Positions 21,018 to 52,139 of a stretch of 64,000 nucleotides of DNA are shown in pieces. The notes beneath the pieces were generated by a model. That model was not told where the DNA came from, did no database searches, and saw only the letters and a list, made by a program, of their open reading frames with translations. How positions within the stretch are numbered: position 1 is the first letter of the stretch; every line of letters starts with the position of its first letter. The position numbers and the translations under genes are program-made. This DNA is from an uncultured Candidatus Actinomarina sp. Its GTDB lineage: Bacteria > Actinomycetota > Acidimicrobiia > Actinomarinales > Actinomarinaceae. The DNA lies in the NCBI GenBank assembly GCA_902526825.1, contig CABZMN010000001.1, positions 7,819 through 71,818 of the forward strand, written 5' to 3'.

Positions 21018-23528
21018 ATGGCAGCCAAGAAACCAGCAGCCAAGAAACCAGCAGCCAAGAAACCAGCAGCCAAGAAACCAAAAACCGCTACTGCTACAAA
21101 GAAAAAACCAACAACTAAACCTGATACACTAAACGGTTCAATTGCTGTCGAAGATGAAATTTCTAAGTCATTCTTAGATTATGCTATGTCGGTTATTGTT
21201 TCCAGAGCTCTTCCAGATGTAAAGGATGGATTAAAACCAGTACAAAGAAGAATTTTATACTCAATGTATGAAACAGGAATTAGACCAACAGGACCTTTCA
21301 GAAAGTGTTCAAAGGTTGTAGGTGATGTTATGGGTAATTATCATCCACATGGAAACGACGCTATATACGGAACCCTAGTAAGGTTGGGACAAAATTTTAG
21401 TACTAGATACCCCCTGATTGAACCACAGGGTAACTTTGGAACCCCGGATGATCCACCTGCTGCTATGAGGTATACAGAGTCTCGAATGTCTTCCCTGTCT
21501 TCACAGCTATTAGATGGAATTGATGAAGAGACAGTAGACTTTGAGCCTAATTATTCCGGAGAGACAAGCGAACCAAAAGTATTACCAGGAAGATTTCCAA
21601 ACCTTTTAATTAACGGAGCTGAGGGTATCGCAGTTGCTATGGCAACAAATATGCCACCCTACAATCTGAAAGAGATTACAGAGGCCGTTAAATTTACATT
21701 AAAAACAAAAGATCCGAAACCACGAGATTATTTAAAAATAATAAAAGGTCCAGATTTTCCTACAGGAGGATTAATTGTAGACACTCCAACCATAAAAGAA
21801 GCAATACTTAAAGGTAGGGGGTCTATAAAACTACGAGCTGTTGCAGACATAGAAGAACTAGGAAAAGGCAGATCTGCAATTATTGTTAAAGAGCTTCCTT
21901 ATCAGGCTTCAATTGACAGAATTATGGAAAAAATAGCATCTTTGGTACAGGACAAAAAATTAACCGGGGTCTCAGACCTAAGGAATGAAAGTAGTGACAG
22001 AAATGGAACCAGACTCGTTGTTGAGTTAAAAAGAGATGCCGTACCACAAGTTGTATTAAATGATCTTTTTAAATTTACACAACTTCAAGATACTTTTTCA
22101 GTTAATTCAGTGGCCCTTGTTGAAGGAGTGCCTAAAGTATTATCGGTTCCTGAACTTATTAGGTACTACGTTGATCATCAAATAGATGTAATTCAAAGAA
22201 GATCTAATTACAGGCTTGAAAAGGCAAAAGCACGGTTACATATCGTTGATGGCTTATTGCTTGCATTGAATAAAATCGATCAAATAATTAAAGTTATTAA
22301 ATCTTCCAAAGACGTGGAGGTAGCAAGAAAATCAATAATGAGTAAATTTAAATTATCAGAAATACAGGCAACACACATTCTTGATATGCCCCTAAGAAGG
22401 TTGACCGCATTGGAAAAAGAAAAGCTCGAAGACGAAAAGAAAGAACTCAAAGAAACAATTAAAGACCTTACAGCAATATTAAAAAGCAGAGCAAAACAAA
22501 ATCAAATACTTATTGAAGAGCTTGATGCAATAACGGACAAGTTTGGTGATGAAAGAAGATCCAGAATTGTTCCAGATGTTGGAGAGGTAAAAATTGAAGA
22601 CTTAATTGAGGACGAGGAAATTATTGTTTCCATCTCATCTGAAGGTTATATAAAATCAGTTCCTTCAACCTCCTATAAAAAACAAGGTAGAGGAGGCAAG
22701 GGTGTTAAAGCAGCTTCTTCAGAAGAAGATGTAATTGAGCACCTCCTTTCAACATCTGTTCACTCTTATTTACTTTTCTTTACTGACAATGGAAAAGTAT
22801 ACAGAGCCAAGGCACATGAAATTCCAAAAACAAATAGGACTGCAAAAGGATCTTTAATCCACAATGTACTTTCAATGGGACAAGATGAAAAAGTTCAGGC
22901 AATAATTGATACAAGGGATTATGAAACAGAAAAATTCTTATTAATAATGACCGAGAAAGGAACGGTAAAAAAATCAAAATTCAAAGATTTTGACTCAAAC
23001 TATAAATCATTACAAGCCATAAAGCTAAAGGATGGTGACAAAGTTGTTTCTGTAAAAACAACGTCTGGGAAAGAAGACATAATACTTGTTTCTCAAAAGG
23101 GACAAGCAATAAGATTCGACGAAAATAATCTCAAAGCTCAAGGTAGATCAGCAATGGGAGTTAGAGGAATAAAACTTCGTGAAGGAGACAAGGTTGTAGG
23201 TGCAGCAACATCCAGAGAGGAAACACTCTTATTTATTACGGCCAAAGGATATGGAAAGCGAACAAAATTAGATGAATTCAGAAGAGCTGGACGAGGAGGG
23301 CTTGGAGTCAAGGCTCTTAAGGTTACGGAAGCCAAAGGAGATTTAATTGGCGCTGGACCCGTTGATGAAGATACAGAGGTTATGCTTATGAGTACTGGTG
23401 GAACAGCAATAAGATGTGCTGTAAAACAAATAAAACAAATGAGTAGAGTTGCTCAAGGAGTAAAGGTTATGAAACTTTCAAAAGAAGAGGAAATATCTGC
23501 CTTTATTCCAATTAAAAATGAATCGTAA
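21018..23528 (+). CDS. gyrA: DNA gyrase subunit A with a ~40-aa Lys/Pro/Ala-rich N-terminal extension
   Basis: FLDYAMSVIVSRALPDVKDGLKPVQRRILY, HPHGNDAIYGTLVRLGQ and AAMRYTE (catalytic Tyr). A C-terminal beta-pinwheel repeat region is present. Confidence 0.95.
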   Translation: MAAKKPAAKKPAAKKPAAKKPKTATATKKKPTTKPDTLNGSIAVEDEISKSFLDYAMSVIVSRALPDVKDGLKPVQRRILYSMYETGIRPTGPFRKCSKVVGDVMGNYHPHGNDAIYGTLVRLGQNFSTRYPLIEPQGNFGTPDDPPAAMRYTESRMSSLSSQLLDGIDEETVDFEPNYSGETSEPKVLPGRFPNLLINGAEGIAVAMATNMPPYNLKEITEAVKFTLKTKDPKPRDYLKIIKGPDFPTGGLIVDTPTIKEAILKGRGSIKLRAVADIEELGKGRSAIIVKELPYQASIDRIMEKIASLVQDKKLTGVSDLRNESSDRNGTRLVVELKRDAVPQVVLNDLFKFTQLQDTFSVNSVALVEGVPKVLSVPELIRYYVDHQIDVIQRRSNYRLEKAKARLHIVDGLLLALNKIDQIIKVIKSSKDVEVARKSIMSKFKLSEIQATHILDMPLRRLTALEKEKLEDEKKELKETIKDLTAILKSRAKQNQILIEELDAITDKFGDERRSRIVPDVGEVKIEDLIEDEEIIVSISSEGYIKSVPSTSYKKQGRGGKGVKAASSEEDVIEHLLSTSVHSYLLFFTDNGKVYRAKAHEIPKTNRTAKGSLIHNVLSMGQDEKVQAIIDTRDYETEKFLLIMTEKGTVKKSKFKDFDSNYKSLQAIKLKDGDKVVSVKTTSGKEDIILVSQKGQAIRFDENNLKAQGRSAMGVRGIKLREGDKVVGAATSREETLLFITAKGYGKRTKLDEFRRAGRGGLGVKALKVTEAKGDLIGAGPVDEDTEVMLMSTGGTAIRCAVKQIKQMSRVAQGVKVMKLSKEEEISAFIPIKNES
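21021..21080 (+). repeat. Four perfect 15-nt tandem repeats (gcagccaagaaacca) encoding (AAKKP)x4 at the GyrA N-terminus
   Basis: Exact copies at 21021, 21036, 21051 and 21066, in frame with gyrA. Confidence 0.95.
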
Positions 23529-24118: not shown

Positions 24119-24139
24119 TTTTTGCTACAATTAATCACT

Positions 24140-24297
24140 AAATAAACAAAGTAAGAAAGCGAAGCTAGTGAGAATCTAGCGCTGTCCCGCAACTGTGATT
24201 CGAAAGATAAGTCAGGTCGACTTTATTACTTTTTTACAACAATCCTCGAGAGAAGGAATGGAGTATCGTACTTTTTCTCGTGGTAAGAAAGGAAAAT
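24140..24297 (+). promoter_or_regulatory. Cobalamin riboswitch (short, AdoCbl-variant-like)
   Basis: AGCGAAGCTAGTGAGAATCTAGCGCTGTCCCGCAACTGTGA matches the core ...GGUGaAAaUCC...CCCGCcACUGU. GATAAGTCAGGTCGAC is the B12 box. Only ~20 nt separate ACTGT from the B12 box, so the large peripheral extension appears to be absent. Confidence 0.7.
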
Positions 24298-25269
24298 ATG
24301 AAAACAAAAATACTTCTTCTTGCCATGATAATTTCAATGTGTGGTGGCACATCCGACGAAGGTAATGAAAAAAACATTATTTCATTATCAACCACTCATA
24401 CAGAAATTATTCAAATGCTTGAAGCTGAGAACCAGCTAATTGGTGTTGATTCGTTCTCAGAGACAGAACTTCCAGTAAAAAAAATAGATGCCTATACAGT
24501 TACAGCTGATGAGCTTCTTTTACTCAATCCAGATATTGTAATCGTTGCTTTTGACTTTAACGGTATAGTAGATGGATTAGAAAATTTAAATATTGAATAT
24601 GCTCTCCTTCCACCTGCACAAAATTTGGATGACGTTTATTACCAAATTGAAACCATTGGAACAATTATTAACAAAGAAAATACAGCAAGTTCTTTAGTTT
24701 TAGAAATGAAATCTGACATTGTTGAAATTATTGAGAACTCAGCAACTGAATCTATATCTGTTTATCACGAAATTGGCTACACATATGGCATATATTCAAT
24801 TAATGAAAATTCTTTTTTAGGAGAAATTTACAATATTCTTGGTGTAAGTAATATTGCAGACAAGACTGAAGACCCCTACGGATCTGGTTACCCACTTCTT
24901 GAAGAAGAACAGGTCTTAAATGCAAACCCTGATCTAATCGTAATTGGACACTCTGACTTTTTGAATAAAGACATCTCAACAAGACAAGGCTGGGATGGTC
25001 TTAATGCCGTATCAAATGAGAATGTTTATTTCCTCGATGAAAACTTAGCAAATAATTGGGGTGTAAATACTGTTGATTTGATAAATACATTATCTGAAAT
25101 AATAAAATTTAATGAAGATCCTGGCTTAGTTTATAAATCAAAATATTTAGAAAGTGATCTTGGCAGTTCAGACAGTACTCAAAACATCATCATTGCAACA
25201 ATAATTGTGATAATCTTGACAGCGTACATAGTTATTACCCGAAGGAATAAGAGTAAAGTACAAAGTTAA
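24298..25269 (+). CDS. BtuF/FecB-type (cluster A) ABC substrate-binding lipoprotein with an extra C-terminal TM anchor
   Basis: The track lists GTG 24280; ATG 24298 has a GAAAGGA RBS. Lipobox IISMCGG. IISLSTTHTEIIQMLEAENQLIGVDSFS and NPDIVIV/NPDLIVIG are typical of PF01497-like binding proteins. The C-terminus IIIATIIVIILTAYIVITRRNKSK is a TM helix with a basic stop-transfer. Confidence 0.7.
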   Translation: MKTKILLLAMIISMCGGTSDEGNEKNIISLSTTHTEIIQMLEAENQLIGVDSFSETELPVKKIDAYTVTADELLLLNPDIVIVAFDFNGIVDGLENLNIEYALLPPAQNLDDVYYQIETIGTIINKENTASSLVLEMKSDIVEIIENSATESISVYHEIGYTYGIYSINENSFLGEIYNILGVSNIADKTEDPYGSGYPLLEEEQVLNANPDLIVIGHSDFLNKDISTRQGWDGLNAVSNENVYFLDENLANNWGVNTVDLINTLSEIIKFNEDPGLVYKSKYLESDLGSSDSTQNIIIATIIVIILTAYIVITRRNKSKVQS

Positions 25270-26195: not shown

Positions 26196-27398
26196 ATGCC
26201 TATTGGCAAAGCGGTAATCGGTCAATCAGGTGGTCCGACAGCTGTAATTAATAAGTCACTAGTTGGCTTCATAAAAGAGGCTATTAATCAGGAATACGAT
26301 GAAATACTTGGAGCAAGACACGGACTGGAGGGGATATTAAAGGAAGATTTTGTTGATTTATCTAAACTTTCAGAGTCTCAACTTTATGGAATATCAAAAA
26401 CACCTGCAGCTGCTTTAGGCTCAGTAAGAAAAAAACCAACGGAGAATGATATTGAGCAATTAGTTTCAATCTTTGAGAAACAAAACATAAGATATTTTTT
26501 CTACATCGGTGGAAATGATTCTGCAGAAACTGCAAATCTTGTATATGAGGGTGCAAAAAAAATAGGATATGAAATTAAAGCCTTTCATATTCCTAAAACT
26601 ATAGATAATGACCTCTTGGAAACGGATCATTGTCCAGGTTATGGTTCAGCAGCCCGATTTGTTGCTCATGCATTTCAAGGGGATGATGCTGACAACAGGA
26701 GCCTTAGAGGAATAAAAATCAATATTTTAATGGGGAGGCATGCTGGATGGCTTACCGCTGCCAGCACTTTAGGAAAATCAACTGAAGAAGATGGTCCACA
26801 TTTAGTTTATGTACCTGAAAAAATATTTAATTTAGATGAATTTTTAAAGGATGTAAAAGAAGTTTACGATTCATTAGGAAGATGTGTAGTTGCTGTATCC
26901 GAAGGCATTCACAATAAAGATGGTGAGTACTTTCTCCAAACATACGCAAGCGAGACAGGTTCTGGACTTGCAGGAAAAAAAGATAGCCACGGAAACATCC
27001 AGCTCTCTGGTTCGGGAGCCTTAGGAGATACACTTACAAACATTGTCTCAGAACATATTGAAGGAGCGAGGGTAAGAGCAGATACGTTTGGCTATCTTCA
27101 GAGATCTTTTCTTGCAGATATTTCGGAAGTAGACGCTGAAGAAGCCGAGAGGGTTGGACAGCATGCAGTTGTAGTTTCAAAAGATAAAGAAAGCGGATCA
27201 ATTATTCTAAGAAGACAGTTTTCAGAAACTTATTATTGCCATGTAGATGTTGTTGAATTACATAAGGTTGCAAAACACACAAAAAATATGCCTGAAGAAT
27301 ATCTAGAAAAAAATAAGCCGTATGTAACAAACAGTTTTTTTGAATACGCAATGCCTTTAACTGGAGGTATAGAACCTAAAACACAGATATTTGTTTAG
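26196..27398 (+). CDS. pfp: 6-phosphofructokinase, predicted pyrophosphate-dependent
   Basis: GQSGGPTAVIN, IGGNDS, IPKTIDNDL and MGRHAGWL. Asp at the fourth position of GG(D/N)xS and Lys in PKTIDND are the residues that distinguish PPi-PFK from ATP-PFK. Confidence 0.8.
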   Translation: MPIGKAVIGQSGGPTAVINKSLVGFIKEAINQEYDEILGARHGLEGILKEDFVDLSKLSESQLYGISKTPAAALGSVRKKPTENDIEQLVSIFEKQNIRYFFYIGGNDSAETANLVYEGAKKIGYEIKAFHIPKTIDNDLLETDHCPGYGSAARFVAHAFQGDDADNRSLRGIKINILMGRHAGWLTAASTLGKSTEEDGPHLVYVPEKIFNLDEFLKDVKEVYDSLGRCVVAVSEGIHNKDGEYFLQTYASETGSGLAGKKDSHGNIQLSGSGALGDTLTNIVSEHIEGARVRADTFGYLQRSFLADISEVDAEEAERVGQHAVVVSKDKESGSIILRRQFSETYYCHVDVVELHKVAKHTKNMPEEYLEKNKPYVTNSFFEYAMPLTGGIEPKTQIFV

Positions 27399-27452
27399 AG
27401 GTCAAAAAAATTAAATTCTTTATGATTTAATAATTATTATTAATACATAAAC

Positions 27453-27956
27453 ATGAAAAAAATAAGCATACTCTTTTTTATTTTATTTTTTAATATCTGC
27501 AGTACCTCAGAAAATGGGGTTATTTCAATTTCTGAAAACACAACAACAACCCAAATCATAAATGAAGAAGATTATCCATTGGTTTTAGCAAAGTGTTTAA
27601 ATGAAGAAAAGGGCTATCAAATTATAACTCCTTTTGATTTAGAGGATTTAAAAACAACAATAAACCAGTTAAGACAAAGTAAGGAAGACGAGTTAGAACT
27701 TGGAGAAGCTATCGATTTTTGTATTGATAAATACAACCTATGGATGGATCGAAGCACTTTAAACCCAGAAGAACTGGCAAGTTTGTATGATGAAAATATT
27801 TCTTTGGCAAGATGTCTGAGAGAAAAAGGTCTTAATGTACCCGATCCAACTCAAGATCAACCTAAAATTGACCTAAGCAACTTAGTTCAATCAAAAGATG
27901 AAATAATTGCTTTATTAGACGAATGTGAGCTTGATGAAAAAACAAACAAAAAATAA
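27453..27956 (+). CDS. Acidic lipoprotein, Cys-repeat paralogue A (two C...C modules)
   Basis: Signal peptide with lipobox FFNIC|S. Modules LAKCLNEEKGYQIITP...IDFC and LARCLREKGLNVPDP...LDEC. Confidence 0.75.
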   Translation: MKKISILFFILFFNICSTSENGVISISENTTTTQIINEEDYPLVLAKCLNEEKGYQIITPFDLEDLKTTINQLRQSKEDELELGEAIDFCIDKYNLWMDRSTLNPEELASLYDENISLARCLREKGLNVPDPTQDQPKIDLSNLVQSKDEIIALLDECELDEKTNKK

Positions 27957-28533
27957 GTTCTTTATATTATTAATTTGTTTACTAGTACAGGCTTGTTCAG
28001 CTTCGAATGAGCAAAAAGGAGTCGTTTCTTCAGAAGACTTAACAACACAAACAACTATTAAAACAGTAACAACAGTCCAGGATAGCCCTGAAGTTGAAGT
28101 TCTAACAGAAGAGGAAGCACAGCTAATACTTGCAGGATGTTTAAGGGAAAAGGGTTATGACGTCTCAGATCCAAAAAATGATGAGGGCTTAAGAACAGTT
28201 TTAACACCGATATTTATTAGTTTCAATGAAAAACAGAGGGAGGAGTTGTTTGACAATATACAATTGTGTGCAGAGGAGAACTCTATTCCACTTGAAAGCA
28301 ACAATAACTTTGAAAATCCTGCTGATGTTGCTGATAGACTTGATACCGAACTTGAGTTTGCGCAGTGTCTAAGAGGTAAAGGAATAGATGTTTCTGATCC
28401 ATCATCTGAGGAACCATTAAGGCCAATACTTATTGAACTTGTACAGTCACAAAAATATACAGCAGATCAAATTCGAGAGGCTGCTGCTGAGTGCTTTGAC
28501 GACCTAGGGCTTGATCCTCCTCCTGGCGGGTAA
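27934..28533 (+). CDS. Acidic lipoprotein, Cys-repeat paralogue B
   Basis: The track start is GTG 27925; ATG 27934 gives MKKQTKNKFFILLICLLVQAC|S. Modules LAGCLREKGYDVSDP...IQLC and FAQCLRGKGIDVSDP...AAEC. Overlaps paralogue A by 23 nt. Confidence 0.75.
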   Translation: MKKQTKNKFFILLICLLVQACSASNEQKGVVSSEDLTTQTTIKTVTTVQDSPEVEVLTEEEAQLILAGCLREKGYDVSDPKNDEGLRTVLTPIFISFNEKQREELFDNIQLCAEENSIPLESNNNFENPADVADRLDTELEFAQCLRGKGIDVSDPSSEEPLRPILIELVQSQKYTADQIREAAAECFDDLGLDPPPGG

Positions 28534-28557
28534 TAAAAAATACTTTATAATTCTGAT

Positions 28558-29154
28558 GTGAGAAAAAAAGTAACATTATTCATATTGTTTTTTTCTTTTT
28601 GTTCGCTATTTCAAAATGAAGAACAAGCTGTGGTATCTGTTGTCGATACAGATAAAGGAAAAGAGGCTATTGCAGCAGGTATAGAAATTAACGAAGAGAA
28701 GGAGGAAATAGCAGATGAAGATGCTCCTCTTGTTTTAGTTCAATGCGTAAACGAAGCAGGTTATAAATTTCAAGAACCAAAAAACTTTATAGATCTATAT
28801 ACAACAATTTCAACTTATTTCGAGACACTTACCGAACAAGAAGCAGAAGAACTATGGAAATCTATTGAAGATTGTGCACTCAAATACAACTTATGGGGAG
28901 TTGCTGATGAAGCACAATTTGAAGACCCAGTCCAGACTTCAAAAGAACTAGATAGAGCTTTATTTATAGCAAATTGTTTTAGAGAAGAAGGATACGAAAA
29001 AGTTCCAGACCCTAATTATTTCAACAGAGATGTAAATCTTGATGCATATATTGATGAAAATTGGGAACTCAGAGAAGATGATCCCTTAGTTCAAACTTGG
29101 CAAGGTTGTGAGGAAAAGTTACCTGAAGAACTAAAGGAAGAGTGGGATGATTAA
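28558..29154 (+). CDS. Acidic lipoprotein, Cys-repeat paralogue C
   Basis: GTG start, lipobox FFSFC|S. Modules LVQCVNEAGYKFQEP...IEDC and IANCFREEGYEKVPDP...WQGC. Confidence 0.75.
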   Translation: MRKKVTLFILFFSFCSLFQNEEQAVVSVVDTDKGKEAIAAGIEINEEKEEIADEDAPLVLVQCVNEAGYKFQEPKNFIDLYTTISTYFETLTEQEAEELWKSIEDCALKYNLWGVADEAQFEDPVQTSKELDRALFIANCFREEGYEKVPDPNYFNRDVNLDAYIDENWELREDDPLVQTWQGCEEKLPEELKEEWDD

Positions 29155-29224
29155 AACTTACAATAAAAATTTTGTCTTAATATCTCTAAATACAATACAA
29201 TGCTTTAAGTAGAAAAATACACAT

Positions 29225-30811
29225 ATGAAGTTAAATATATTTAAAAATAGAAATTTTTATATTTTGATAGTTTTAATTTTTGTTGGTTCTGTCACTTATT
29301 ATTTTGGAACCCAAAATACTGAATCTTCATCTATAAATAAAACGCTACAACTGACAACTATATCGGTGAAACAAGGTGATCTTGAAAAGAAAGAAGAATA
29401 CAACGGGACATTGAGACAAACTGACAGCAAAATACTTAATAGTCCTATGGCTGGTGTTGTAACTTATATTCCAGATGAAGGAACTATTGTAAAATTTGGA
29501 GAGATACTCTTTGCTGTTGATAACAAACCAGTCATCCTTGTTGAAGGATCAGTTCCTTTTTATAGAACATTAGATCTTAACTCTGATCCAGGACCAGATG
29601 TATTACAACTTGAAAAAGCACTAGTTTATTTAGGATATGCAGCTGATGGATTTGCTCCAGATGATACTTTTGATGAAACTACTTCACAGATGCTTAACAA
29701 GCTTTATCTTGACTACAAAATAGAAACAAAATCTGAAGTTACTCCATCTGAACAGGTTGCTATCAACTTGAAAGAAACAGAAGTGAAGAATATTGAAGAA
29801 ACTATTGATTCAGGCGGGACAACAATTACTGAAGTAAATGACAAAAAAAAGAAACTAGATGATGCAAAAGAAGATGCAACAGAAGAGAGCGCAGGTTGGA
29901 AAGCAGCAGATACAGCAATTAAAGATGCTGAAGAGACCCTAACGCTTTATAGAGATGAAACAAATCCAAAAACAAAAGAGAAAAAAGCTGATGGAACTTT
30001 AGATTCTGCTATCGAAGACTTAGAACAAACAATAGAAGAACAAAAAAGAATTAAAGCACTAGAAAAAGGAAAAGAGTCAGGCATAGACGCAACAGAGGCA
30101 CTTGCAATTGAGACAGCCCAAAAAGCTTATGATGATGTTTTAAAAGACTACAACGAAGGAGTTGATCAGGAAGCTGAATTAGCAAAAGCAAAAGAAGAAC
30201 TAGAAGAACTTAGGTTAGCTTCAAAGTCAGAAACATTTAGTCCAACAAACGCCTATGCATCTGAAACAGCAATAATTGTTGGTTCTTATATAAACAAGGT
30301 TGGATCTGCTGTAGTTCTAAACTCTCAGCTTTATAATATTTCTTCAGTTGGAATTGAGGTTGTTTTCCAAGTTGATGCATCAGATCAAGAGACAGTTTCA
30401 ATTGGAGATAGCGTTGAGATTGAACTTCCAACAGATGAAAGAGTACCAACGGTGATTACCTTTATAGACCAAGTAGTTACTCAAACTCAAACTGGAGATT
30501 TTATTGAGGTGATTCTTGAAGTACTATATCCAGAAAAAATTGAAGCTTACGATCAAGCACCTGTAAAAGTATTTGTTACAACTGAAATATCCGAGAATGT
30601 GCTTTATGTACCAGTAAATGCATTAATTGCTTTAGCTGAGGGAGGTTATGCCTTAGAAATCTATGAAGGTGAAGCTGAAGGAGGAGTTTTTGAGGGTGAG
30701 TCAGGAGTTGACACTATCTATGTAGCTGTTGAAATTGGAGTCTTTACTGATGGGTTTGTAGAAATCAAGGGAAATATTACTAAAGGTCAACTTGTAGTCG
30801 TACCACGATGA
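29225..30811 (+). CDS. Membrane-anchored HlyD/MacA-like periplasmic adaptor with an inserted peptidoglycan-binding domain and a long coiled coil
   Basis: N-terminal TM helix (FYILIVLIFVGSVTYYF) and a lipoyl-like hairpin (AGVVTYIPDEGTIVKFGEILFAV). PG_binding_1-like PDVLQLEKALVYLGYAADGFAPDDTFDETTSQML, a ~170-aa Glu/Lys/Ala coiled coil, and a C-terminal beta-barrel region. The stop overlaps the ATPase start (ATGA). Confidence 0.75.
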   Translation: MKLNIFKNRNFYILIVLIFVGSVTYYFGTQNTESSSINKTLQLTTISVKQGDLEKKEEYNGTLRQTDSKILNSPMAGVVTYIPDEGTIVKFGEILFAVDNKPVILVEGSVPFYRTLDLNSDPGPDVLQLEKALVYLGYAADGFAPDDTFDETTSQMLNKLYLDYKIETKSEVTPSEQVAINLKETEVKNIEETIDSGGTTITEVNDKKKKLDDAKEDATEESAGWKAADTAIKDAEETLTLYRDETNPKTKEKKADGTLDSAIEDLEQTIEEQKRIKALEKGKESGIDATEALAIETAQKAYDDVLKDYNEGVDQEAELAKAKEELEELRLASKSETFSPTNAYASETAIIVGSYINKVGSAVVLNSQLYNISSVGIEVVFQVDASDQETVSIGDSVEIELPTDERVPTVITFIDQVVTQTQTGDFIEVILEVLYPEKIEAYDQAPVKVFVTTEISENVLYVPVNALIALAEGGYALEIYEGEAEGGVFEGESGVDTIYVAVEIGVFTDGFVEIKGNITKGQLVVVPR

Positions 30812-31512
30812 AAACCGATACAAAAACTGTAATTTCAATCAATGATATTTCAAAAGTTTATGAAGGACCACCCCCTGTAAAAGCACTAGATGGAGTTTCT
30901 TTAAATGTTAATGAAGGAGATTTAGTTGCAATTGTTGGACAATCTGGAAGTGGTAAATCAACTTTACTAAATATGATTGGTTTACTGGATAGTGTTACAG
31001 ACGGCTCAATTGAAATAGAAGGCAAAGATATATCTGACTTAACAGATAATGAACTCTCAAAATTTAGAGGTGAAAAAATAGGATTTATTTTTCAAAGCTT
31101 TTTTCTTTTGCCTGGATTAACCGCACAAGAGAATGTTGCAGAGGGGTTACTATATCAAGGGATTTCAAGGTCAGAAAGGTTAGAAAAAGCCGGAGATGTT
31201 TTAGAACAAGTAGGACTAGGTGATAGGTTAAGCCACCTTCCAAAAGAACTTTCCGGTGGTCAGCAACAAAGAGTTGCAATTGCTAGAGCACTAGTACAAG
31301 ACCCAGCATTTGTTTTAGCAGATGAGCCAACTGGAAATTTGGATAAAGAATCAGGAATAAATATTTTAAATATCTTAAAAGAACTTAATTACCAAGGAAA
31401 AACTGTAATTATGATTACTCACAATCAAGAACATGCAAATATGTTTAAAAAAGTAATTGAATTGGTTGATGGAAAAATTGTAAAAAATGAAAAGAAAAAA
31501 ACTAAGAACTAG
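30808..31512 (+). CDS. ABC transporter ATP-binding protein, MacB/LolD-type
   Basis: Walker A GQSGSGKST, Q-loop FIFQSF, signature LSGGQQQRVAIARAL, Walker B VLADEPTGNLD and H-loop ITHN. Confidence 0.92.
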   Translation: MKTDTKTVISINDISKVYEGPPPVKALDGVSLNVNEGDLVAIVGQSGSGKSTLLNMIGLLDSVTDGSIEIEGKDISDLTDNELSKFRGEKIGFIFQSFFLLPGLTAQENVAEGLLYQGISRSERLEKAGDVLEQVGLGDRLSHLPKELSGGQQQRVAIARALVQDPAFVLADEPTGNLDKESGINILNILKELNYQGKTVIMITHNQEHANMFKKVIELVDGKIVKNEKKKTKN

Positions 31513-32671
31513 AGATTTATTTTTTGTTGCACTTTATGGAGTTCGCGCAAGAAAAGGCAGAGCTACTCTTACTTCTATTGGAATTGGAATTGGAATAGCT
31601 GCAATAGTTGCAGTTTCTGGAATATCAGCATCTGGAAGGGCTGACTTACTATCAACTCTTGAGTCACTTGGAACAAATCTGGTAAAAGCTTCTCCTCAAG
31701 CAGGATTTTTTGGAACTCAAGAAGATTTACCAAAAGGAGTTCTCGGAATGGTTGAAAGAATTGGACCAGTTGAAGAAGTAACATCTACAACTCAGACTGA
31801 TTTACTAGTTCGTAGAAGTAACTTTATATCAGAATTTGAAGGTGGGGGAATTTCAACAATAATTACAAGCGCAGAACTTTTAGATGTAATTGGAGGTAAT
31901 CTTGTTGAAGGCAGGTTCATTACACCTGGTTTGTCTAACATACCTGTAACTGTGTTAGGAAGTGTTACTGCTGAGAGACTTGGAATTACAAATCTCTCGA
32001 CACCTACAAAAATTCTCATTGATAATGAATGGTTTGGGGTAATTGGGGTATTAGAAGAGCTTAAAATACATCCAGACCTAGATAGATCAGTATTTATAGG
32101 TTATGGAGTTGCAAAAACTCTTTTTGATATTGATGAGGAACCAACAACAATTTATTTAAGAGCAAATCCAACTTTTATTGAGGATGTTGTTGAGGTACTA
32201 GCTCCATCAATGAACCCTGAAAATCCTGATCAAGTAGAAGTTACTAGACCCTCAGACGCACTTGAAGCGCAACAAGCAGCTGAAGAAGCATTTACTAATT
32301 TATTACTGGGGCTAGGTTCTGTAGCTCTTCTTGTTGGAGGTGTTGCAATTGCAAACGTAATGGTTATGTCTGTTCTTGAAAGAAGAATGGAAATAGGTGT
32401 GAGAAGATCAATTGGTGCAACCCGTAGAGAAATAAGGTATCAATTTTTATTAGAAAGCATAGTTTTATCAGGAATAGGAGGCCTTGTTGGTGTTGGCCTA
32501 GGAACCTTAATTACTTTGGCTTACACTAACTACACAGATATTGTATTCTCAATACCTATATGGCAGATTTTAGGAGCAGTTTTTTTAGCCTTATTAATTG
32601 GAGCAATTTCAGGAGTATATCCAGCTATAAAAGCATCAAAAATCCAACCAGCAGAAGCAGTAAGAAAGTAA
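31487..32671 (+). CDS. ABC transporter permease, FtsX/MacB family (type VII)
   Basis: TM1 (ATLTSIGIGIGIAAIVAV), then a ~230-aa extracytoplasmic domain and a C-terminal 3-TM FtsX domain (IGVRRSIGATRREI...PAIKASKIQPAEAVRK). Confidence 0.88.
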   Translation: MKRKKLRTRDLFFVALYGVRARKGRATLTSIGIGIGIAAIVAVSGISASGRADLLSTLESLGTNLVKASPQAGFFGTQEDLPKGVLGMVERIGPVEEVTSTTQTDLLVRRSNFISEFEGGGISTIITSAELLDVIGGNLVEGRFITPGLSNIPVTVLGSVTAERLGITNLSTPTKILIDNEWFGVIGVLEELKIHPDLDRSVFIGYGVAKTLFDIDEEPTTIYLRANPTFIEDVVEVLAPSMNPENPDQVEVTRPSDALEAQQAAEEAFTNLLLGLGSVALLVGGVAIANVMVMSVLERRMEIGVRRSIGATRREIRYQFLLESIVLSGIGGLVGVGLGTLITLAYTNYTDIVFSIPIWQILGAVFLALLIGAISGVYPAIKASKIQPAEAVRK

Positions 32672-33189
32672 TTCTTCTTGCTTTGTTGGTTTCTGCCTGC
32701 ACTATTGGTGAAGAAGAAACTAAGGGCGTAGTCTCACTCGAAGAAAGTGTATCCTCTACAACAATTATTGAGCAAGTAACTTTTGAAGAAGGTGTCCTGA
32801 ATTTTGCACAATGTATGAGAGAAGAAGGCATTGACTTTCCAGACCCTTCATTTGATATAGATGGCAATCCAGAATTTGATAATTTAGATATTGAAAATGA
32901 AGAAGAATTTGAAGAAGCATTTACAAACTGTGAAGATATTTTGAGAAACGCTCTTCCTGATCAATTTGATCTCGATCCAGAAGTTGAGGCAGCATTGGTT
33001 GATGCTTCATTAGAATTTTCAAAATGTATGAGAGATGAAGGTATTAGTAACTTTCCTGACCCAACACCAGGTGAATTTGGATTTTTTGCTTTTAGAGATG
33101 CAGATATTGAATGGACTTCAGACGAGGTTCAAGAAGCATTTGAAATCTGCCAACCAGAAAATCCTCTTGATTCGATAGGTGATGATTAA
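32560..33189 (+). CDS. Acidic lipoprotein, Cys-repeat paralogue D (start uncertain)
   Basis: Lipobox LLVSAC|T with the Cys codon at 32698..32700. Modules FAQCMREEGIDFPDP...FTNC and FSKCMRDEGISNFPDP...FEIC. The only canonical in-frame start is ATG 32560, 112 nt inside the permease gene. Confidence 0.7.
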   Translation: MADFRSSFFSLINWSNFRSISSYKSIKNPTSRSSKKVILLALLVSACTIGEEETKGVVSLEESVSSTTIIEQVTFEEGVLNFAQCMREEGIDFPDPSFDIDGNPEFDNLDIENEEEFEEAFTNCEDILRNALPDQFDLDPEVEAALVDASLEFSKCMRDEGISNFPDPTPGEFGFFAFRDADIEWTSDEVQEAFEICQPENPLDSIGDD

Positions 33190-33662
33190 ATTCCTGAATC
33201 AAAATACATAGGTGGGCTTACTCCTATTGTCTGCCAACACAAGCCTTCACTAATTGCACATTCATCATATGTAAACACCCATGTAACAACAAAATACTCA
33301 TTTTTATTATTTAAAATTTTTATTTCATAATGAATCATCTTGTCATCTTCTTGAATTACTTCATATGAGTAATCTGTTAAATCAACTATTGCGTTGTATG
33401 GAGTAGAAATAAGCATTGATTTAAATCTTTCAATTGGTCCGGTAACCTCTTTATTGTCTTTATGAGCATTATTCCAGATTATTTCAACAGCTTTATCTGG
33501 GTCCGATGAGAAGTTTCTATAGCTTTCCATTATTTCAATAAGAACATCCTCAGAATCTTTTTGTTCAACTACAAGATCATTATCAGCATTTGTAGAATTA
33601 CAACTGAATAAAAAAAAGATAATTAAAAATAATTTTTGAAACTTCTTATGCACTAAAAACAA
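33186..33662 (-). CDS. Lipoprotein of unknown function
   Basis: Signal peptide LIIFFLFSC|N. Convergent with paralogue D, overlapping it by 4 nt. Confidence 0.6.
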   Translation of the reverse strand: MFLVHKKFQKLFLIIFFLFSCNSTNADNDLVVEQKDSEDVLIEIMESYRNFSSDPDKAVEIIWNNAHKDNKEVTGPIERFKSMLISTPYNAIVDLTDYSYEVIQEDDKMIHYEIKILNNKNEYFVVTWVFTYDECAISEGLCWQTIGVSPPMYFDSGI

Positions 33663-51918: not shown

Positions 51919-52032
51919 AAATTTTCTCCTTTTTTGGAGAAGGATTTTGACTATTTAGTTGCATCTCTGCCACATTTTCAGGCACCTTGGATAGTCATCC
52001 AGGTTGCCGAGGTCTTAACCTTCTCTATATGC
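51919..52032 (-). promoter_or_regulatory. SAM riboswitch of the SAM-I clan (SAM-I/IV- or SAM-IV-like) with an SD-sequestering platform
   Basis: The minus strand reads GCATATAGAGAAGGTTAAGACCTCGGCAACCTGGATGACTATCCAAGGTGCCTGAAAATGTGGCAGAGATGC. It has P1 GCAT/ATGC, conserved AGAG, GGCAACC, GGUGCC and GAGAU, with P3 TGGAT/ATCCA and P4 GCC/GGC. Downstream is TTCTCC-aaaaaa-GGAGAA and then the ATG. Confidence 0.65.
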
Positions 52033-52139
52033 TTTTATCATTATATCAAATATTTTATTTTTCTGAAAATTTTTTGAATTTATAGGTTTTATTTCAATTC
52101 CTAATTATTCCTATATCAGTCAATCTTTATTATTAAATT

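What the first reader, a model, noticed from the sequence alone, without database searches (positions are those of the whole stretch)
27453..29154. Unassigned ~55-60 aa two-cysteine module present in eight copies (two per lipoprotein)
The start of each of the eight copies, read from the translations, is as follows. A1 LAKCLNEEKGYQIITP, A2 LARCLREKGLNVPDP, B1 LAGCLREKGYDVSDP, B2 FAQCLRGKGIDVSDP. C1 LVQCVNEAGYKFQEP, C2 IANCFREEGYEKVPDP, D1 FAQCMREEGIDFPDP, D2 FSKCMRDEGISNFPDP. In every copy a second Cys follows 30-45 residues later in an acidic context (IDFC, LDEC, IQLC, AAEC, IEDC, WQGC, FTNC, FEIC). The consensus is h-x-x-C-[LMVF]-[RN]-[ED]-x-G-h-x(1-3)-[PS]-[DE]-P ... [acidic]-C. The mature proteins contain exactly four Cys each, which suggests one disulfide per module in an exported, strongly acidic protein. 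I recall similar C-M-R-x-x-G-V-x-x-F-P-D-P strings in uncharacterised secreted actinobacterial proteins, but I cannot verify this here. The internal duplication plus fourfold paralogy in an otherwise streamlined genome argues for selection on this family.
Basis: seen in the sequence. Interest (0 to 1): 0.7.

Follow-up and report, generated by a model that had tools for sequence, protein, structure and literature searches.

The report
New lipoprotein partner of MacB-type pump
The eight two-cysteine modules are real and belong to a large, unnamed family of membrane-tethered proteins that is always encoded directly in front of one kind of cell-envelope ABC pump in actinobacteria and relatives, so they mark an undescribed fourth component of that pump.

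Summary
Four paralogous acidic proteins with lipoprotein-type signal peptides (A, B, C and D) each carry two ~60-aa modules with two invariant cysteines. D lies 3.4 kb outside the stated coordinates.

The internal repeat is significant (hhalign E 2e-11). No Pfam, NCBIfam or PDB sequence match exists. AlphaFold2 predicts a folded helix-loop-hairpin-helix unit (core pLDDT 80), and Foldseek finds no solved relative.

The family is large: 3,474 clusters at 50% identity, nearly all ~200 aa with two modules and four cysteines. It occurs in Actinomycetota and Chloroflexota, and every member with a name is a 'hypothetical protein' or 'Lipoprotein'.

In 76-77 of 80 species genomes the gene sits directly upstream of a peptidoglycan-binding periplasmic-adaptor gene, an ABC ATPase gene and a MacB/FtsX permease gene. 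The same holds in 75 of 75 adaptor-selected metagenome loci. A two-component system is usually adjacent.

The window's low-GC marine lineage shows no two-component system in its 64 kb and has four copies, three upstream and one downstream of the pump genes.

My best reading is a membrane-tethered partner of a MacB-type pump, probably a ligand-capture or immunity-type accessory. A dedicated cargo role is the main rival. This is a new variant of a known kind, and its function is inferred, not shown.

The parts
27453..27956 (+). Paralogue A, 167 aa. Signal peptide with Cys16 (FNIC), G-V-I-S motif after the Cys, and two modules: A1 at 27558-27746 and A2 at 27777-27950. A1 lacks the family's near-invariant Arg and PDP (it reads CLN...ITP).
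27934..28533 (+). Paralogue B, 199 aa from ATG 27934 (the ORF's first start is GTG 27925). Canonical lipobox VQAC, G-V-V-S motif, and two modules: B1 at 28102-28293 and B2 at 28330-28518. It overlaps the end of A.
   Evidence: (P0121 starts MKKQTKNKF)
28558..29154 (+). Paralogue C, 198 aa, GTG start. Cys15 (FSFC), A-V-V-S motif, and two modules: C1 at 28708-28899 and C2 at 28939-29133. C1 is degenerate (CVN...QEP).
29225..30811 (+). Periplasmic-adaptor (membrane-fusion-protein) homologue, 528 aa. It has an N-terminal TM helix and a weak PG_binding_1 match. Compared with the 375-aa high-GC orthologues it carries a ~170-200-aa coiled-coil-like insertion.
   Evidence: (profile hits MexJ adaptor at 2.8e-9; PG_binding_1 in 33/34; HlyD_3 in 9/34)
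30808..31512 (+). ABC ATPase of the MacB/LolD/FtsE type.
31487..32671 (+). MacB-type permease (MacB_PCD + FtsX). Its best solved relatives are Spr0695 (5xu1) and MacB (5lil).
32560..33189 (+). Paralogue D. It is 209 aa from ATG 32560, overlapping the permease gene by 112 nt, or ~168 aa from TTG 32683; the start is unresolved. Lipobox VSAC with the Cys codon at 32698, G-V-V-S-L motif, and two modules: D1 at 32776-32955 and D2 at 32989-33174. D is the paralogue closest to the family consensus.

Best explanation
Shown here:
- A-D are four paralogues of a widespread, unnamed family of acidic proteins that are exported and tethered to the membrane.
- Each protein has a lipoprotein-type signal peptide. 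A short conserved G-V-[AV]-S-[LV] motif follows at a fixed 9-11 residues after the anchoring Cys, then a disordered linker.
- Two tandem ~60-aa modules follow. Each module is helix, C-M-R-x-x-G-h-D-h-P-D-P loop, small beta-hairpin, helix, with one invariant Cys in each helix.
- The family gene is the obligatory first gene of an operon. That operon encodes a peptidoglycan-binding periplasmic adaptor, an ABC ATPase and a MacB-type permease.
- In high-GC lineages a two-component system is adjacent.
- In the window's streamlined lineage no two-component system is found within the 64 kb. The lipoprotein gene has multiplied to four conserved paralogues that bracket the pump genes.

Inferred:
- Each module is stapled by one intramodule disulfide.
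- The protein stays tethered at the outer face of the membrane and works as a dedicated partner of the pump.
- The two near-invariant loop faces of this pseudo-dimeric protein, and the fixed-height N-terminal motif, dock on the two-fold symmetric MacB periplasmic domains and/or the adaptor.
- The variable, strongly acidic remainder captures an amphipathic or cationic ligand at the membrane surface, most plausibly an antimicrobial peptide or similar envelope-active compound.
- The ligand is handed to the pump, which uses ATP-driven mechanotransmission to expel it through the adaptor, beyond the wall zone.
- The four paralogues would widen the ligand range of a single pump. A and C each carry a degenerate first module.
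For: Module reality and fold: establish the repeat. AlphaFold2 gives a core mean pLDDT of 80.1, with the same helix / loop / hairpin / helix order in both halves.

Family size and uniform architecture: 3,474 clusters at E<=1e-3, nearly all with two modules and ~170-280 aa. Cys counts track module number. C, R, G, D and P of the motif are 99-100% conserved.

Anchor: 472 of 509 proteins have a lipobox-like Cys. 414 have the GV[AV]S-like motif, and its offset peaks sharply at 9-11 residues. V11 is >=90% conserved in the 137-sequence alignment.

Obligate linkage to the pump:
- The order module gene, adaptor, ATPase, permease is seen in 76-77 of 80 GTDB species loci from several classes and two phyla.
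- In the reverse test, 75 of 75 loci picked by their adaptor alone have the module gene directly upstream.
- The arrangement is the same in a complete Streptosporangium genome and in four close relatives of the window.

Identity of the pump: the permease is MacB family. The adaptor is MFP family with a PG_binding_1 domain.

Two-component system: adjacent in 76 of 80 loci.

Tether rather than lipid matters: about seven family members replace the lipobox with a transmembrane signal-anchor, some with long cytoplasmic extensions.

Precedents:
- Gram-positive MacAB-like pumps act on extracytoplasmic peptides and carry a fourth accessory component. One such adaptor binds peptidoglycan (PMC5985334).
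- The lipoprotein NisI binds nisin and acts cooperatively with an ABC transporter under two-component control. NisI has two domains (PMC4828448).

The mature proteins are strongly acidic, with pI 4.05-4.2.
Against: - No ligand, no binding pocket and no protein-protein contact has been shown. Complex prediction was not possible with these tools.
- The mirror-tree test did not single out a partner. Partial correlations of the module protein with adaptor, permease and kinase were 0.29, 0.27 and 0.26.
- The strongest conservation lies in the loop motif, which argues for a conserved protein partner. It says nothing directly about ligand capture.
- Acidity is also common in exported proteins of marine streamlined bacteria, so it need not reflect cation binding.
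- The NisI analogy is functional only. NisI is beta-rich and LanFEG is not MacB-type.
- A streamlined oligotroph keeping four copies without a regulator could equally fit a structural or cargo role.
Confidence: 0.45

Rival explanations
1. Dedicated cargo. The lipoprotein is the substrate of the pump. The MacB-type permease, acting like LolCDE or Aat, extracts it from the outer leaflet by its acyl chains and N-terminal peptide. It is then pushed through the peptidoglycan-binding adaptor to the wall or cell surface. The four paralogues would be four cargoes.
For: - MacB-family machines do traffic lipoproteins. LolCDE appears among the permease's PDB hits.
- The Aat system exports a small dedicated acylated protein through a MacB/Lol-like transporter plus adaptor (PMC7943197).
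- The conserved motif sits at a fixed 9-11 residues from the lipidated Cys. That is where a transporter holding the lipid would meet the polypeptide.
- The gene is always first in the operon.
- The lipoproteins evolve faster than the machinery: 59-88% identity against 91-93%.
Against: - Some family members are anchored by a transmembrane helix with a long cytoplasmic extension instead of a lipobox. A Lol-like lipid extraction could not release these.
- No acyltransferase or LolA-like carrier was seen in the operons, although this was not searched exhaustively.
- The organisms are mostly monoderm, so no outer membrane needs to be reached.
- Two equivalent near-invariant motifs per protein fit docking on a symmetric partner better than a one-time passage.
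Confidence: 0.25
2. Signalling accessory. The lipoprotein is a co-sensor that modulates the adjacent histidine kinase. It could do so directly or through a pump-kinase sensing complex of the Bce type, as the actinobacterial lipoproteins LpqB and CseA do for MtrB and CseC (own knowledge).
For: - A two-component system is adjacent in 76 of 80 loci.
- The kinase has a ~150-aa extracytoplasmic domain (sequence).
- Permease and kinase distances co-vary strongly, with partial r 0.56. This suggests a pump-kinase unit that the lipoprotein could join.
Against: - The window's 64 kb contains no two-component system, yet the window keeps and has multiplied the lipoprotein.
- The lipoprotein gene always abuts the adaptor gene, while the two-component system varies in position and orientation.
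- The partial correlation of the lipoprotein with the kinase is no higher than with the pump parts.
Confidence: 0.12
3. Redox or metal protein that is unrelated to the pump and merely co-located. One example would be a thiol-based or copper-binding helical hairpin like CHCH/COX17 proteins.
For: - Recurrent sub-threshold Pfam matches to CHCH, CX9C and COX17 over the helix that carries the first Cys.
- A CPTC thioredoxin-like lipoprotein lies directly upstream in one sister lineage.
- His is frequent in the motif of high-GC members (CMREHG).
Against: - All of those Pfam matches are far below threshold, at 10-18 bits against cutoffs of 25-27.
- There is only one Cys per helix, not a twin CX9C.
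- The His is not conserved: 43% family-wide and absent from all eight window modules.
- The thioredoxin neighbour is absent from the window and from 160 other loci.
- 75/75 and 76-77/80 synteny with the pump is not co-location by chance.
Confidence: 0.05

Closest known systems
Gram-positive MacAB-like pumps with a fourth component (B. subtilis YknWXYZ, E. faecalis AS-48EFGH, S. pneumoniae Spr0693-0695/Sp0785-0787)
   Same: They share a MacB-type permease with a large extracytoplasmic domain, a separate ABC ATPase and a membrane-fusion-type adaptor in a monoderm. The window permease's best solved relative is Spr0695. YknX binds peptidoglycan. YknW and AS-48E are extra co-transcribed components of unclear role (PMC5985334).
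   Different: The fourth component here is a small exported, tethered, disulfide-containing helical protein. It is not a polytopic membrane protein. The adaptor carries a bona fide PG_binding_1 domain. The system is actinobacterial/chloroflexal and is usually paired with a two-component system.
Lantibiotic immunity modules: LanI lipoprotein + LanFEG ABC transporter + LanRK (e.g. NisI/NisFEG/NisRK)
   Same: The gene-set logic matches: a lipoprotein plus an ABC transporter plus a two-component system. The lipoprotein binds the peptide at the membrane surface and acts cooperatively with the transporter. NisI has two domains joined by a flexible linker (PMC4828448).
   Different: There is no sequence or fold similarity. 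NisI is mainly beta-sheet, while these modules are helical. LanFEG is not a MacB-type transporter and has no adaptor. No bacteriocin genes were noticed next to these operons.
Lipoprotein-trafficking MacB relatives: LolCDE and the Aat system (AatPABCD with CexE/dispersin)
   Same: Both involve a MacB-fold permease handling a lipidated protein. Aat combines this with an adaptor and exports a small dedicated substrate (PMC7943197). The window permease has weak hits to LolC/LolE/LolF.
   Different: The permease is much closer to MacB (1e-23) than to LolC (3e-6). No acyltransferase, LolA-like carrier or outer-membrane factor was seen. Some family members are TM-anchored rather than lipidated.
BceRS-BceAB-type peptide-antibiotic sensing and detoxification modules
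   Same: A two-component system is genetically coupled to a MacB-architecture (FtsX-type) ABC transporter (PMC5985334). Permease and kinase co-vary here.
   Different: BceB has ten TM helices and no adaptor or lipoprotein partner. Bce kinases are intramembrane-sensing, whereas the kinase here has a sizeable extracytoplasmic domain.
CHCH / CX9C / COX17 disulfide-stapled helical hairpins and insect PBP/GOBP odorant-binding proteins
   Same: Both are small helical units held by disulfides between helices. Family members repeatedly give weak Pfam matches to them.
   Different: All matches are below threshold. The module has one Cys per helix rather than twin CX9C, and two rather than six Cys per unit. 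Foldseek against the PDB, which holds many such structures, finds no match.

Membership tests
Any Pfam-A or NCBIfam family (module level) | Score at or above the curated gathering cutoff of a family model | tested here: not met
   There is no family at E<=1 other than noise for A-D. The same holds for 15 high-GC relatives. The one precomputed hit, PF28567 YGL041W_C, is flagged faint. The Pfam copy dates from 2025, so newer InterPro entries could not be checked.
Bacterial lipoprotein (Lgt/Lsp substrates) | N-terminal signal peptide ending in a lipobox L-[AS]-[GA]-C | tested here: met
   B (LVQAC) and D (LVSAC) are canonical. A (FFNIC) and C (FSFC) are non-canonical at positions -1 and -2, but their Cys is conserved in orthologues. 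472 of 509 family members have a lipobox-like Cys.
Bacterial lipoprotein (Lgt/Lsp substrates) | Actual diacylglyceryl modification and signal peptidase II cleavage | not testable with these tools
   This needs globomycin sensitivity, lipid labelling or mass spectrometry.
Disulfide-stapled module (one S-S per module) | The two Cys of a module are within bonding distance and oxidised | not testable with these tools
   Model coordinates are not exposed. Indirect support comes from 100% conservation of both Cys and from Cys counts equal to twice the module number. Oxidative folding of exported proteins in Actinobacteria is own knowledge.
MacAB-like (type VII ABC) pump system | Permease with four TM helices, a MacB periplasmic core domain and an FtsX domain | tested here: met
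   MacB_PCD at 1e-16 and FtsX at 5e-22. PDB hits are Spr0695 at 1e-23 and MacB at 4e-23. The Planotetraspora orthologue gives the same result.
MacAB-like (type VII ABC) pump system | Cognate ABC ATPase of the MacB/LolD/FtsE group | tested here: met
   ABC_tran at 2e-36. The top NCBIfam matches are the MacB ATPase part, DarD, LolD and FtsE, all below their equivalog cutoffs.
MacAB-like (type VII ABC) pump system | Membrane-fusion/periplasmic adaptor protein | tested here: met
   The single window sequence gives only a weak PG_binding_1 match. A profile of 34 orthologues hits the MexJ adaptor at 2.8e-9 over the C-terminal half. HlyD_3 matches 9 of 34 and HlyD_D23 matches 3 of 34. The window protein aligns to the orthologues at both ends.
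YknW / AS-48E type fourth component | Polytopic (four-TM) membrane protein co-transcribed with the pump | tested here: not met
   A-D have a single N-terminal hydrophobic segment followed by a soluble acidic body.
LanI immunity lipoproteins | SpaI/NisI-type beta-rich fold | tested here: not met
   The AF2 model is helical with only short hairpins. Foldseek against the PDB finds nothing at E<2.
CHCH / CX9C | Twin CX9C motifs on two antiparallel helices | tested here: not met
   There is one Cys per helix, 37-44 residues apart. Pfam scores are 10-18 bits against cutoffs of 26-27.

The most novel reading that the evidence does not exclude
The module is a structurally unprecedented domain, and the protein is a universal fourth subunit of a monoderm MacB-type machine.

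One version: the protein is a pseudo-two-fold plug or gate that sits in the two-fold symmetric periplasmic cleft of the MacB dimer and controls mechanotransmission.

The other version: it is the dedicated lipoprotein cargo of a Lol/Aat-like extraction and wall-delivery pathway in Actinomycetota and Chloroflexota. No lipoprotein trafficking machine is known in those phyla.
Probability: 0.25. Interest if true: 0.8.

Novelty: new variant of a known kind. Interest (0 to 1): 0.6.

Why it matters
- MacB-type (type VII) ABC transporters work from outside the membrane, and their roles in monoderm bacteria are poorly understood. The review literature asks what the adaptor does without an outer membrane and what the extra components do.
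- This analysis identifies a strictly co-inherited extra component, together with a peptidoglycan-binding adaptor. It spans thousands of sequence clusters in two phyla, and none of the named members carries more than a generic name.
- That gives a concrete handle. The system can be tested genetically in cultivable Nocardioides, Micromonospora, Nonomuraea or Streptosporangium.
- It also defines a new domain family that merits a database entry.
- It flags a rare gene-family expansion, from one copy to four, in one of the most streamlined free-living actinobacterial lineages. That points to an envelope function important enough to be diversified there.

Tried and rejected
- **Pfam and NCBIfam** scans of the window proteins and of 15 relatives gave nothing above noise.
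- **PDB by sequence**, using the module profile, gave no credible hit.
- **Foldseek against the PDB** was run with the full mature D model and with the trimmed core. The best E was 2.4 and TM<=0.25, so there is no fold relative.
- **PF28567**, precomputed on one relative, turned out to be a faint hit to a yeast family.
- **A thioredoxin-like CPTC lipoprotein** lies upstream in a sister lineage. I followed it as a possible dedicated oxidoreductase. It is absent from the window and from all 160 other loci, so it is not part of the system.
- **The mirror-tree comparison** of distance matrices was meant to pick the physical partner. It was not discriminating.
- **The promoter/terminator scan** of 27200-33400 gave fewer promoter-like sites than shuffles and no convincing terminator, so it is uninformative.
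- **Literature searches** for the operon type in actinomycetes found no description.
- **P0218**, an apparent fusion of the lipoprotein and the adaptor, looks like a gene-calling or frameshift artefact, so I rejected it as evidence.
I repeated them with narrower alignments.
Full report
**1. What is in the window**

The region lies a few kilobases downstream of dnaA, dnaN, gyrB and gyrA in a ~32% GC sequence. Seven co-directional genes sit with minimal spacing or overlaps:
- three small genes: A at 27453-27956, B at 27934-28533 and C at 28558-29154;
- a 528-aa gene at 29225-30811;
- an ABC ATPase gene at 30808-31512;
- a MacB_PCD+FtsX permease gene at 31487-32671;
- a fourth small gene, D, ending at 33189.

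The finding's coordinates cover A-C only.

A six-frame pattern scan and a module HMM both find exactly eight modules, two in each of A-D, and none elsewhere in the 64 kb. The Cys spacing inside a module is 37-44 residues. Each protein has four Cys after the lipobox Cys. The mature proteins have pI 4.05-4.2.

**2. Is it more than chance?**

Yes. Profiles of the N-terminal and C-terminal modules match each other with hhalign probability 97%, E 2e-11. An HMM built only from eight high-GC relatives recovers the four window proteins at E 1e-9 to 5e-27 and recovers nothing else.

**3. The fold**

AlphaFold2 was run on mature D with a 137-sequence alignment. It gives a disordered N-terminal 25 residues followed by a folded body.

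The trimmed core reaches mean pLDDT 80.1 and pTM 0.53. The same order of elements appears twice: a helix carrying Cys 1, the conserved loop, a short beta-hairpin, and a helix carrying Cys 2.

Foldseek against the PDB finds nothing, with best E 2.4 and TM<=0.25. Model coordinates are not exposed, so I could not measure Cys-Cys distances.

**4. The family**

The eight-module profile was searched against 1.84 billion representative proteins. It finds 3,474 clusters at E<=1e-3 and 690 at E<=1e-10. Nearly all are 170-280 aa with two modules.

Typical members are high-GC lipoproteins reading ...ACGG...GVASL...(Gly/Asp-rich linker)...AMLEFAQCMREHGVDMPDP...QEACQ..., and this pattern occurs twice.

- 478 of 495 two-module proteins have exactly four Cys after the lipobox;
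- all four three-module proteins have six;
- 472 have a lipobox-like Cys;
- 414 have a G-V-[AV]-S-[LV]-like motif whose offset from that Cys peaks sharply at 9-11 residues.

In 273 non-redundant modules both Cys and the final Pro of the motif are 100% conserved. The R, G and D of the motif are 99% conserved.

Every member that carries a name is called 'hypothetical protein', 'Uncharacterized protein' or 'Lipoprotein'. Neither Pfam nor NCBIfam covers the family.

**5. Context: the key new result**

The best 80 come from Acidimicrobiia, Nitriliruptoria, Thermoleophilia (Solirubrobacteraceae), Actinomycetes (Nocardioides, Actinocrispum, Planotetraspora) and Chloroflexota.

In 76-77 of these 80 loci the order on one strand is two-module gene, adaptor, ABC ATPase, MacB permease. 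In 76 of 80 an OmpR-type response regulator and a HAMP/HisKA kinase are adjacent. They are either divergent or co-directional.

I then ran the reverse test. Eighty metagenome loci were chosen by the adaptor alone. All 75 with enough upstream DNA have the two-module gene immediately upstream. A complete Streptosporangium genome shows the same six genes.

The permease is a MacB-family member. Its best solved relatives are the S. pneumoniae MacAB-like permease 5xu1 at 1e-23 and MacB 5lil at 4e-23.

The adaptor is a membrane-fusion/periplasmic adaptor protein with an inserted PG_binding_1 domain. The profile hits MexJ at 2.8e-9, PG_binding_1 matches 33 of 34 orthologues and HlyD_3 matches 9 of 34. 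The window's adaptor is orthologous at both ends but carries a ~170-200-aa K/E/A-rich insertion.

**6. The window's lineage**

Close relatives are marine SAGs and MAGs, labelled Acidimicrobiaceae bacterium in NCBI. They keep the same arrangement of A, B and C, then the adaptor, ATPase and permease, then D.

A sister lineage at 36% GC has one copy upstream and one downstream. High-GC genomes have one copy. So the family grew from one to two to four copies in this streamlined clade.

No two-component system is found in the 64 kb.

The paralogues are 30-39% identical to each other. Orthologues between genomes are 59-88% identical, against 91-93% for the ATPase and permease. dN/dS is 0.05-0.15 wherever dS is not saturated.

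Modules A1 and C1 have lost the otherwise 99%-conserved Arg and Asp of the motif.

**7. Mechanism**

Shown: this is a folded, Cys-paired, tandem-module exported protein with a membrane anchor, and it is strictly co-inherited with a MacB-type pump that has a peptidoglycan-binding adaptor.

Inferred: one disulfide per module, and permanent tethering at the membrane. I further infer docking on the pump through the two near-invariant loop faces and the fixed-height N-terminal motif. The proposed role is ligand capture or immunity, feeding the pump.

The inference rests on four points:
- Known Gram-positive MacAB-like pumps protect against extracytoplasmic peptides and have enigmatic fourth components (PMC5985334).
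- NisI/NisFEG/NisRK provides a precedent of lipoprotein, ABC transporter and two-component system (PMC4828448).
- The proteins are strongly acidic.
- Rare family members are anchored by a transmembrane helix instead of a lipid. That argues the tether is what matters, not an extractable lipid.

The main rival is that the protein is the pump's dedicated cargo, as in the Aat system or Lol (PMC7943197). A role as co-sensor for the kinase is less likely, because the window shows no kinase nearby yet has multiplied the lipoprotein.

The mirror-tree analysis could not identify the partner.

I put about 0.85 on 'dedicated component of the MacB-type system'. I put about 0.45 on the tethered-accessory mechanism as stated.

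**8. Novelty**

The pump class is known. The module, its fold (no solved relative), its obligate place in the operon, the PG_binding_1-bearing adaptor and the six-gene unit are not described in the databases or literature I could search. I therefore rate this a new variant of a known kind, built around a new domain family.

AlphaFold DB and current InterPro could not be consulted.

Noticed in passing
window 32560-32700: D lacks an obvious start codon. In a sister lineage the gene starts ATG-AAA-AAA (MKKIIF...), overlapping the permease stop. In the window the equivalent codon is AGT, and there is no ATG, GTG or TTG until TTG 32683, which would leave only MLVSAC before the lipobox. The only canonical start that gives a full signal peptide is ATG 32560, 112 nt inside the permease gene. 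Public gene calls split between the two forms.
   Followed up: partly
window 29225-30811 (about aa 179-377): The adaptor carries a ~170-200-aa Lys/Glu/Ala-rich, coiled-coil-like insertion that is absent from the 375-aa high-GC orthologues. It may be an alpha-hairpin like those of classical membrane-fusion proteins.
   Followed up: partly
window 27558-27746 (A1) and 28708-28899 (C1): The first modules of A and C have lost the family's 99%-conserved Arg (CLN/CVN instead of CMR) and the Asp of PDP (ITP/QEP). They share a KYNLW tail. A and C look like a subfamily with one degenerate module.
   Followed up: partly
L166 6486-6977 and L167 3842-4333: A thioredoxin-like lipoprotein (lipobox LISC, CPTC active site) lies directly upstream of the two-module gene in a 36% GC sister lineage. 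It is not present in the window or in 160 other loci.
   Followed up: yes
P0001, P0419, P0406 (relatives): These are three-module variants made by recent tandem duplication of one module, and each has six Cys.
   Followed up: partly
P0147, P0237, P0379, P0243, P0256 (relatives): These family members replace the lipobox with a transmembrane signal-anchor. Three of them have 70-90-aa acidic, proline-rich cytoplasmic N-terminal extensions.
   Followed up: partly
L005-L084 (68 complete loci): Distance matrices of the MacB permease and the adjacent histidine kinase co-vary strongly after controlling for the ATPase (partial r 0.56). This is higher than for adaptor and permease (0.47). It hints at a pump-kinase sensing unit of the Bce type.
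   Followed up: no
window 24134-24273 (+) and 24280-25269 (+): An AdoCbl (B12) riboswitch lies directly upstream of a Peripla_BP_2-type binding protein. That protein has a lipobox-like N-terminus and a C-terminal hydrophobic tail.
   Followed up: no
window 51945-52037 (-): A SAM-I/IV riboswitch scores 72 bits against a gathering cutoff of 41.
   Followed up: no
window 21018-21080 (+): GyrA begins with a four-fold AAKKP repeat (MAAKKPAAKKPAAKKPAAKKP), a basic N-terminal extension.
   Followed up: no
window 33186-33662 (-): A 158-aa ORF with a lipoprotein-type signal peptide (LFSC) is convergent on D. It is conserved next to D in related genomes and has no Pfam or NCBIfam match.
   Followed up: no
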